Assembly: GCF_006345805.1 (NCBI RefSeq)
Contig: NC_043003.1
Span: 1,922,001 to 1,986,000 of the forward strand
Length of the DNA stretch: 64,000 bases
Source: Octopus sinensis
Lineage: Eukaryota
Direction of reading: 5' to 3'
Shown: piece by piece, positions 26,330-26,765 of the stretch
Position numbering within the stretch: the first letter of the stretch is position 1
How the letters are laid out: each line of letters starts with the position of its first letter
Notes under the pieces: model-generated
What the model was told of the DNA's origin: nothing
Databases searched by the model: none
Seen by the model: the letters and a program-made list of their open reading frames with translations, nothing else
Made by a program: the position numbers and the translations under genes

Positions 26330-26765
26330 TAAAACATATGCATATATACATACATATATGTACGTACCTACCTCTACATGTATATATACATGCATATATG
26401 GGTACAGGACACCAAAAAAACGTCGAACACAATGAGAAACGAAAACATAAACACAAAACCAAGGAAATGGACATTTTTCTTAAACAACGAAAAAATAGAG
26501 TACAGGACATACAAAACAAGGAAAATTCCCCTTCTTCAGTCGCCTTCGTTTCATCTACTCCACGTTTCGAAGGTCAAGGCGATACATGACTTTAATGAAA
26601 CAATCCTTCCCGCGAAAATCAAATTAAATAAAATTTGAGATTTTTTTGCGAAGAGGTAAAAATGGTAACAAAAACAGGACAGTAACGACAGTACAAAATA
26701 TAAACAGTAAAAGACAGGATAAGGAGAATAACAGTAACACAAACAAGAAGGGCTGTTAAGCCGAA
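26330..26765 (-). mobile_element. Short non-autonomous repeat carrying a rearranged hammerhead (copy A)
   Basis: Shares the 5' start GGCTTAACAG and the 3' GTCCTGTACCCATATATGCATGTA with 30265-30553. Confidence 0.7.
26528..26588 (-). ncRNA. Candidate non-circularly permuted hammerhead ribozyme, copy A
   Basis: CATG-TA-TCGCCTT / GACCTTC-GAAA-CGTG / 14 nt / AAGGCGA-CTGAAGA-AGGGG. Confidence 0.7.

What the first reader, a model, noticed from the sequence alone, without database searches (positions are those of the whole stretch)
26528..26588. Hammerhead core with its three strands in scrambled (non-circularly permuted) order
Seen on the minus strand: [CAUG-UA-UCGCCUU] [GACCUUC-GAAA-CGUG] 14-nt linker [AAGGCGA-CUGAAGA-AGGGG]. 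All conserved hammerhead core nucleotides are present. UCGCCUU pairs with AAGGCGA (7-bp stem I, placed exactly after UH and before CUGA), CAUGU pairs with ACGUG (stem III), and a weak stem II can form. Established: hammerhead types I-III are circular permutations of the order CUGA, GAAA, UH. Here the order is UH, GAAA, CUGA, which no circular permutation gives, so standard descriptors would miss it. Inference: it folds as a pseudoknotted hammerhead (the distal ends of stems I and II lie close together in the known fold) or assembles between tandem copies. Predicted cleavage is between 26583 and 26582. I recall rearranged hammerheads being reported from Xenopus repeats and know of none from molluscs, but have not checked.
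Basis: partly seen in the sequence, partly recalled or inferred. Interest (0 to 1): 0.9.

Follow-up and report, generated by a model that had tools for sequence, protein, structure and literature searches.

The report
Hammerhead ribozyme opened at its core
Thousands of copies of a mobile repeat in this animal genome, and published Naiad retrotransposons that were said to lack one, carry the parts of a hammerhead ribozyme in a scrambled order not found in our literature searches, predicted to cut its own RNA, likely by two copies docking on each other.

Summary
Confirmed and extended. The minus-strand motif (26533-26609) has all hammerhead core bases in the order cut site, GAAA, CUGANGA. It is one of about 5,500 pattern matches in the genome (control 18) and sits in an 810-bp non-coding repeat with Penelope-type hallmarks. 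Stems I, III and a fourth helix covary across subfamilies. Non-circular hammerheads are known (type SGC, Eckert 2023), but from meta-omic data and one bacterial candidate. This one differs further: the best partner of the strand before GAAA lies upstream of the whole motif, not after CUGANGA, so the core is opened between A9 and G10.1. The same form lies downstream of Naiad reverse-transcriptase remnants here (10 of 30 loci). Read by eye, it is also in 9 published Naiad consensi from four phyla, and 6 nematode or spider entries carry type CSG. This likely explains the 'missing' Naiad hammerheads. Linker lengths argue against a monomer for two published entries, not for this copy, so the dimer is inferred. 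Copy 5' ends pile up 5-15 nt past the predicted cut, but a control family shows no such signal. Cleavage is untested.

The parts
26605..26609 (-). Stem II 5' strand (G10.1-10.5), placed upstream of the whole motif
   Evidence: 5 Watson-Crick pairs with 26569-26573; duplex -7.3 against -3.1 kcal/mol for the downstream option; paired in 46-50 of 50 copies per position; changes together with its partner in Naiad copies and published Naiads (by eye)
26595..26602 (-). Helix P4, 5' strand (equivalent of the stem I-II interaction helix of type SGC)
   Evidence: Formed in the single-strand fold; 5 of 6 counted pairs change on both sides; own partner -7.9 against swapped -4.6 kcal/mol, 0 of 2000 swaps as low
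26584..26589 (-). Stem III strand ending in U16.1
26582..26583 (-). Predicted cleavage site, after H17 (A at 26583)
   Evidence: By analogy with hammerheads; H17 is C 29, U 17, A 8 in 54 copies, and none of the 7 further intact-flank copies has G there; not shown to be cut
26576..26582 (-). Stem I strand 1.1-1.7
   Evidence: 280 of 324 cells Watson-Crick against a mean of 180 (max 210) when strands are swapped between copies
26569..26573 (-). Stem II 3' strand ending in C11.1
26560..26568 (-). G12-A13-A14, then stem III strand from A15.1
26547..26554 (-).
26540..26546 (-). Stem I strand 2.7-2.1
26533..26539 (-). Catalytic core C3-A9 (CUGANGA), the last element of the motif
   Evidence: N7 varies: A 29, U 22, G 3 of 54
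26519..26532 (-). G-rich strand and small local hairpin after the core; the weaker alternative stem II strand
26308..26772 (-). 5'-truncated solo copy of an 810-bp non-coding repeat unit (unit positions 307-773), ending in a TA microsatellite
   Evidence: 95.7% identical to the unit of L027; unit, tandems, inversions and tail; TA array 26017-26359
30251..30470 (-). Second, older copy of another subfamily: different but fully paired 7-bp stem I (30468-30462 with 30431-30425), core at 30424-30418; upstream stem II and P4 strands lost

Best explanation
The stretch 26533-26609 is a scrambled hammerhead motif with covarying stems, carried by thousands of copies of a non-coding Penelope-type repeat, and it is predicted to cut its own RNA after position 26583, likely when two copies dock on each other. 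Shown: the order is stem II 5' strand, P4, stem III, UH, stem I, short link, stem II 3' strand, GAAA, stem III, P4, stem I, CUGANGA. This is the cyclic order of types SGC/CSG/GCS, but opened between A9 and G10.1. Inferred: each copy folds as one long P4-P3 hairpin whose loop holds the cut site and GAAA, with two free feet (the stem II 5' strand; stem I plus CUGANGA). The loop of one copy would pair with the feet of a second copy, from the same tandem transcript or another RNA, to build the active site, so cutting would need two units. Inferred role: processing tandem transcripts into unit-length, possibly circular, templates that a Penelope-type (probably Naiad) reverse transcriptase and endonuclease copy into TA repeats.
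For: Covariation of stems I, III and P4. Core bases invariant in the alignments where N7 and stems vary, partly imposed by the search patterns. Upstream stem II: 5 or 6 Watson-Crick pairs in 19 of 38 Naiad-type matches against 0 of 38 for the downstream strand. Seven different upstream stem II sequences across this genome and published Naiads all start with G10.1-C11.1 (published ones by eye). In type SGC the stem II 5' strand is followed by about 1 nt and then the interaction helix; the same adjacency is found upstream here. Reach estimate: a monomer needs 62 A and has at most 43 in the Acropora entries, 53 against 44 in Naiad_EuTe. Penelope hallmarks: partial tandems 14 of 60 loci, adjacent inverted pieces 10 of 60, optional tail, TA targets (defined in PMC8557442). 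Dimeric hammerheads are known in Penelope elements and retrozymes. 16 of 66 copy 5' ends fall within 16 nt 3' of the predicted cut, 9.6 times background, p 6e-10.
Against: No cleavage data. For this copy and the octopus Naiad the reach estimate does not exclude a monomer (39 A needed; 76 and 53 available), and Naiad_Plae is borderline (42 against 40). Stem II does not covary inside the window's own family, and the downstream option (G-C, G-U, G-U, G-C) is also conserved there. The 5' ends lie 5-15 nt past the cut, not at it, and 50 of 90 copies run through it. A type I hammerhead family in the same genome has 1 of 65 ends in the matching window and piles its ends elsewhere, so the pile-up is not a proven cleavage mark. 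The 810-bp unit has no homology to the Naiad loci outside the motif, so its mobiliser is not identified. In one Penelope element, hammerhead cleavage was not needed for insertion in vitro and required protein (PMC11167929).
Confidence: 0.55

Rival explanations
1. It is an active hammerhead that folds as a single molecule: either the core-opened form with the 5x5 internal loop between P3 and P4 acting as a U-turn, or plain type SGC using the G-rich strand after CUGAAGA.
For: The reach estimate allows a monomer for this copy. The downstream strand can give G-C, G-U, G-U, G-C in 47-54 of 54 copies per position. Natural SGC ribozymes cleaved during transcription (PMC10085705).
Against: P4 covaries with the upstream strand only (downstream: -2.75 against -2.53 swapped, 141 of 2000). 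The upstream stem II is stronger in 49 of 50. The first downstream G was part of my search patterns. Several published Naiads have no usable downstream strand and too little reach.
Confidence: 0.3
2. The fold is kept for a non-catalytic job (binding or stopping the reverse transcriptase, or marking a transcription start), and cleavage is negligible in the cell.
For: 5' ends sit in the hairpin loop but not at the scissile bond. The control family piles its ends near a small inverted repeat far from its ribozyme. Penelope hammerheads are often weak in vitro and were dispensable in one in vitro system.
Against: The catalytic bases and a non-G H17 are kept across subfamilies and phyla while the stems and N7 change (published entries by eye), which is the pattern of selection on catalysis.
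Confidence: 0.13
3. Chance arrangement of short motifs, multiplied passively by repeat amplification.
For: A loose descriptor hits 2 of 100 simulated windows; copies are related by descent, so shuffle controls overstate significance.
Against: 12 of 21 pairs change on both sides; slid controls give 2-4. Unrelated stem sequences keep the pairing in four phyla.
Confidence: 0.02

Closest known systems
Type SGC hammerhead ribozyme (HRIMA-1 and variants; Eckert et al. 2023, PMC10085705)
   Same: Same cyclic order of cut site, GAAA and CUGANGA; short link between stems I and II; extra helix joining the far ends of stems I and II; all core bases.
   Different: In SGC the stem II strand follows CUGANGA directly, and the authors treat that block as indivisible. 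Here it lies at the 5' end, and P4 is joined to stem III on both strands. SGC was reported from metatranscriptomes; the paper found none in genomes of known organisms apart from one bacterial GCS candidate.
Type CSG hammerhead (two metagenomic sequences, same paper)
   Same: Same cycle; P4 joined directly to stem III on one strand. Six nematode and spider Naiad entries read by eye fit this type.
   Different: CSG keeps CUGANGA and the stem II strand together; the window motif does not.
Naiad Penelope-like elements (Craig et al. 2021, PMC8557442)
   Same: TA targets, partial tandems, inverted 5' pieces, optional tail. Published as lacking canonical hammerheads, with 'core' and 'half core' flags; the same motif form sits in their 3' UTRs.
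   Different: The window element is non-coding and shares only the motif form with the Naiad family found here.
Animal non-LTR retrozymes (PMC7229834; bioRxiv 10.64898/2026.07.22.740005)
   Same: Non-coding head-to-tail units with one hammerhead per unit, linked to Penelope-like elements; some act as dimers.
   Different: Defined by type I hammerheads; expressed units of about 170-400 nt (family consensi up to 972 bp). Known dimers swap through a short palindromic stem III, not by loop-to-feet docking.

Membership tests
Hammerhead ribozyme | Core bases C3 U4 G5 A6 G8 A9, G12 A13 A14, A15.1-U16.1, H17 | tested here: met
   Window copy; 54 of 61 intact-flank copies; C and G blocks were fixed by the search pattern
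Hammerhead ribozyme | Stems I and III flanking the core, with covariation | tested here: met
Hammerhead ribozyme | Stem II closed by R10.1-Y11.1 | tested here: met
   G-C with the upstream strand in 50 of 50 copies, C11.1 fixed by the pattern; covariation only between families (and published entries by eye)
Hammerhead ribozyme | Site-specific self-cleavage after H17 | not testable with these tools
   Only assembled contigs were offered for sequencing runs
Types I-III (circular permutations) | Block order CGS, GSC or SCG | tested here: not met
   Order is S, G, C; no Rfam hammerhead match
Type SGC (Eckert 2023) | Order cut site, GAAA, CUGANGA | tested here: met
Type SGC (Eckert 2023) | Stem II strand and interaction-helix strand directly 3' of CUGANGA | tested here: not met
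   P4 partner is upstream; downstream stem II weak in this family and absent in Naiad-type copies
Non-LTR retrozyme | Non-coding head-to-tail units with a hammerhead in each | tested here: met
   810-bp unit, up to three in tandem in L005; no credible ORF in the unit among 30 related loci
Non-LTR retrozyme | Type I hammerhead | tested here: not met
   see above
Non-LTR retrozyme | Expressed as linear and circular unit RNAs | tested here: inconclusive
   No holder on record as RNA; contigs only
Penelope-like element insertion pattern | 5' truncation, partial tandems, inverted 5' pieces, 30-40 bp optional tail, TA targets | tested here: met
Naiad clade (autonomous) | ORF with N-terminal GIY-YIG and C-terminal RT | tested here: not met
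   The window element has no ORF and no homology to Naiad loci outside the motif. Separate Naiad remnants carry RT (Pfam RVT_1 E 9.6e-5, below its cut-off) and the same motif form.

The most novel reading that the evidence does not exclude
Naiad retrotransposons and their non-coding passengers use a fourth, core-opened permutation of the scrambled hammerhead, split between A9 and G10.1, which works only when the hairpin loop of one copy docks on the feet of another: a natural two-copy sensor for tandem transcripts, spread over at least four animal phyla, with type CSG in nematode and spider Naiads.
Probability: 0.5. Interest if true: 0.9.

Novelty: new variant of a known kind. Interest (0 to 1): 0.82.

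Why it matters
It would put non-circularly permuted hammerheads into animal genomes at thousands of copies; the one paper on them found none in eukaryotes. It breaks that paper's working rule that CUGANGA and the stem II strand cannot be separated. It gives a concrete, testable answer to a stated puzzle, the absence of canonical hammerheads from Naiad elements. It raises the known type CSG examples from two sequences to a likely clade of nematode and spider elements. A ribozyme that needs two copies would also be a compact way to process only tandem transcripts, and a new part for RNA engineering.

Tried and rejected
Rfam scans: nothing relevant. Sequencing runs: no RNA holder listed; four contig sets laid gave no usable information on ends or expression, so their depth dip at the motif is not used. 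Positive control for the 5'-end pile-up: a minimal type I hammerhead family (70 copies) showed no pile-up at its cut; this weakens the cleavage reading and is reported against it. The pile of ends at -204 is an artefact of using the truncated window copy as reference. Search for an autonomous partner with the window family's own motif: none in ORF scans of 30 loci or in 30 RT loci. Pfam on four short RT fragments gave nothing; two longer ones gave weak RVT_1. Alignment A1 misaligned the Naiad rows upstream, so pair counts used A2 (29 rows that I picked as intact, which favours pairing) and register-anchored counts on all intact-flank copies. No motif of this kind was seen by eye in the Naiad entries Esco, Adux, Skow-1, Ppla, Dcar or Omin (three are flagged incomplete). 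Literature searches with no report of this form or of permuted hammerheads in Naiads or octopus; the library lacks most subscription journals. Earlier scan findings: none on this element. The Lunse 2017 dimer paper was not read.

Full report
Observation. The three blocks are on the minus strand as described. Registers: U16.1 at 26584, H17 at 26583, stem I 7 bp, G12 at 26568, stem III 6 bp, CUGAAGA at 26539-26533. A descriptor for this order hits the window once and 2 of 100 simulated windows. Rfam gives no hammerhead match.

The carrier. A 161-nt query has 3,155 first-look candidates in the genome; the 40 scored are 98-100% identical. The window copy spans 26772-26308, ends in a TA array and splits another dispersed repeat. 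Longer copies define an 810-bp non-coding unit. Among 60 loci, 14 show head-to-tail partial tandems and 10 an adjacent inverted piece (two of the loci overlap one place). An optional tail of about 35 bp was flagged in 4 of 30. These are the hallmarks of Penelope-like insertions listed in PMC8557442 (passages). The genome looks like an octopus's, because its Naiad copies match the published Octopus Naiad motif.

Covariation. A pattern that fixes only GAAA and CUGANGA gives 5,502 matches against 18 for the reversed control. Of 91 sampled instances, 89 belong to the family; 61 keep the upstream flank and 54 of those have GU-H at the expected distance (the other 7 carry point changes, an insertion or deletions there). 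In these 54, stem I has 280 of 324 cells Watson-Crick against a mean of 180 (max 210) when strands are swapped between copies; stem III has 256 against 192 (max 222). Positions 15.1, 15.2, 16.1, 16.2 and 11.1-11.3 were fixed by the pattern or my rule and carry no weight. On 29 hand-picked intact rows, 94.7% of cells pair and 12 of 21 pairs change on both sides; slid controls give 35-46% and 2-4 pairs. The 'linker' is one strand of a helix P4 whose partner lies upstream: own partner -7.9 kcal/mol against -4.6 swapped (0 of 2000 as low), while the downstream candidate shows no such specificity (141 of 2000). Copies are related, so these controls overstate significance, but the changes are double and recur in several subfamilies. 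A second copy in the window has a different, fully paired stem I.

What is known. Eckert et al. 2023 (PMC10085705; main text parts 1-6 of 8 read, supplement searched three times) named the order cut site, GAAA, CUGANGA type SGC and validated it in vitro, with two CSG sequences and one doubtful GCS. [quoted passage not shown] They assume CUGANGA and the stem II strand cannot be separated. In their alignments the stem II strand follows the core and is followed by about one base and the interaction helix.

How this differs. Here that same pair, stem II strand then P4 strand, sits at the 5' end of the motif. In the window family the upstream strand gives five Watson-Crick pairs from G10.1-C11.1 and the lower energy in 49 of 50 copies. 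It does not covary inside the family, and a weaker downstream option is also conserved. A second pattern (1,128 matches, control 222) finds a family with another stem II. In 38 matches, chance hits and truncated copies included, 19 have 5-6 Watson-Crick pairs upstream and none downstream; one copy (L069) has the compensatory A-U to G-C change in a fully paired stem. This family lies 0.7-1.4 kb downstream of reverse-transcriptase remnants on the same strand in 10 of 30 loci (weak RVT_1; Naiad-type DKA motif).

Published Naiads. Craig et al. 2021 state that Naiads lack canonical hammerheads and flag 'core' and 'half core' cases. I read their consensus file by eye: passages around most CUGANGA matches and four whole parts of 20. 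Matches broken by line ends are missed. Of 54 entries, 9 show the core-opened form with stems I, II, III and P4: Amil, Aacu (one mismatch each in stems I and II), Anas, the entry before Plae (Movir-2 by order), Plae, EuTe, Obim, Ovul, and one near part 9 (Clytia by order). Their stem II pairs differ (for example GGCUCC/GGAGCC, GGCCCC/GGGGCC, GGGGA/UCCCC, GACGCC/GGCGUC, GACACC/GGUGUC). In the cnidarian, acanthocephalan and crustacean entries the bases after CUGANGA cannot form it. Six entries fit type CSG with P4: Nbra-2, Nbra-3, and entries near parts 13, 14, 15 (nematodes by order) and 16 (a spider by order). Six entries read to their ends showed neither. All forms share one cyclic order opened at different points. 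These pairings were not computed.

Mechanism. Stems II and III stack coaxially (stated), so the far end of stem III lies opposite the far ends of stems I and II, which P4 joins. In the core-opened form P4 is tied to stem III on both strands. With generous values (2.8 A per pair, 6 A per link step) a monomer needs 62 A and has 43 in Acropora, 53 against 44 in EuTe, 42 against 40 in Plae. The window copy (39 against 76) and the octopus Naiad (39 against 53) are not excluded. The simplest common solution is intermolecular: P4-P3 is one hairpin, the single-strand fold (16.1-15.1 paired in 26 of 50 copies), and its loop docks on the two feet of another copy. Dimeric activity is known for other Penelope and retrozyme hammerheads (passages of PMC4209133 and PMC7229834), by a different swap. 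This step is inferred.

Genomic trace. In 90 copies anchored about 190 nt downstream, 16 of the 66 that reach the motif end within 16 nt 3' of the predicted cut: 9.6 times background, p 6e-10; the best other window has 4 (two near-duplicate pairs not removed). The ends are 5-15 nt past the cut, about the length of stem I, and 50 copies run through it. A minimal type I family in the same genome has 1 of 65 ends in the matching window and 56 of 70 ends more than 70 nt upstream. The pile-up therefore shows that something happens at this structure during copying, not that it is cleavage. Reads could not help. PMC11167929 (passages) found hammerhead cutting dispensable for insertion in vitro in another Penelope clade.

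Verdict. A real, selected hammerhead-like structure (about 0.85 that it cleaves), most likely with the stem II partner upstream (about 0.75) and acting between two copies (about 0.55 overall). It works like a type SGC hammerhead in a retrozyme, but fails one defining feature of each, so it is filed as a new variant. Nine searches found no report of it. I also read parts 1-3 of 5 of the 2026 retrozyme preprint (type I only; its supplements are closed and could not be checked) and two passages of PMC13725137.

Noticed in passing
PMC8557442 File S5, parts 13-16: Nematode and spider Naiad consensi carry well-paired type CSG hammerheads with the extra P4 helix; the 2023 paper reported two natural CSG sequences. 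Read by eye only.
   Followed up: partly
L276-L345; fragment at window 35022-35088: A second non-coding family (2,230 exact anchor matches) with a minimal type I hammerhead and TA targets. Most 5' ends fall about 90-113 nt upstream of its cut, around a small inverted repeat; the cause is unexplained, and the far edge is partly capped by my reference.
   Followed up: partly
window 30251-30470, minus: Older copy of another subfamily with an intact core and stem I but the upstream strands lost.
   Followed up: yes
window 26770-26945 and 25630-25878: The element and its TA array split another dispersed repeat in two; the halves are adjacent in L003 and L022. It looks like a SINE (label recalled, not tested).
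   Followed up: no
L083:2311 minus, L073, L151, L158, L163: Further diverged families with GAAA before CUGAUGA and their own flanks; one (L083) keeps stems I and III fully paired. The genome likely holds more families of this form than were sampled.
   Followed up: no
window family, upstream of the stem II 5' strand and after the core: The bases after CUGANGA resemble a decayed repeat of the upstream stem II and P4 strands, which would fit an origin by tandem duplication of a CSG ancestor. Speculative.
   Followed up: no
L052:33-780: A Penelope-type ORF fragment (end of RT and start of the endonuclease linker) lies about 550 nt upstream of a truncated family copy; probably a neighbouring insertion.
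   Followed up: partly
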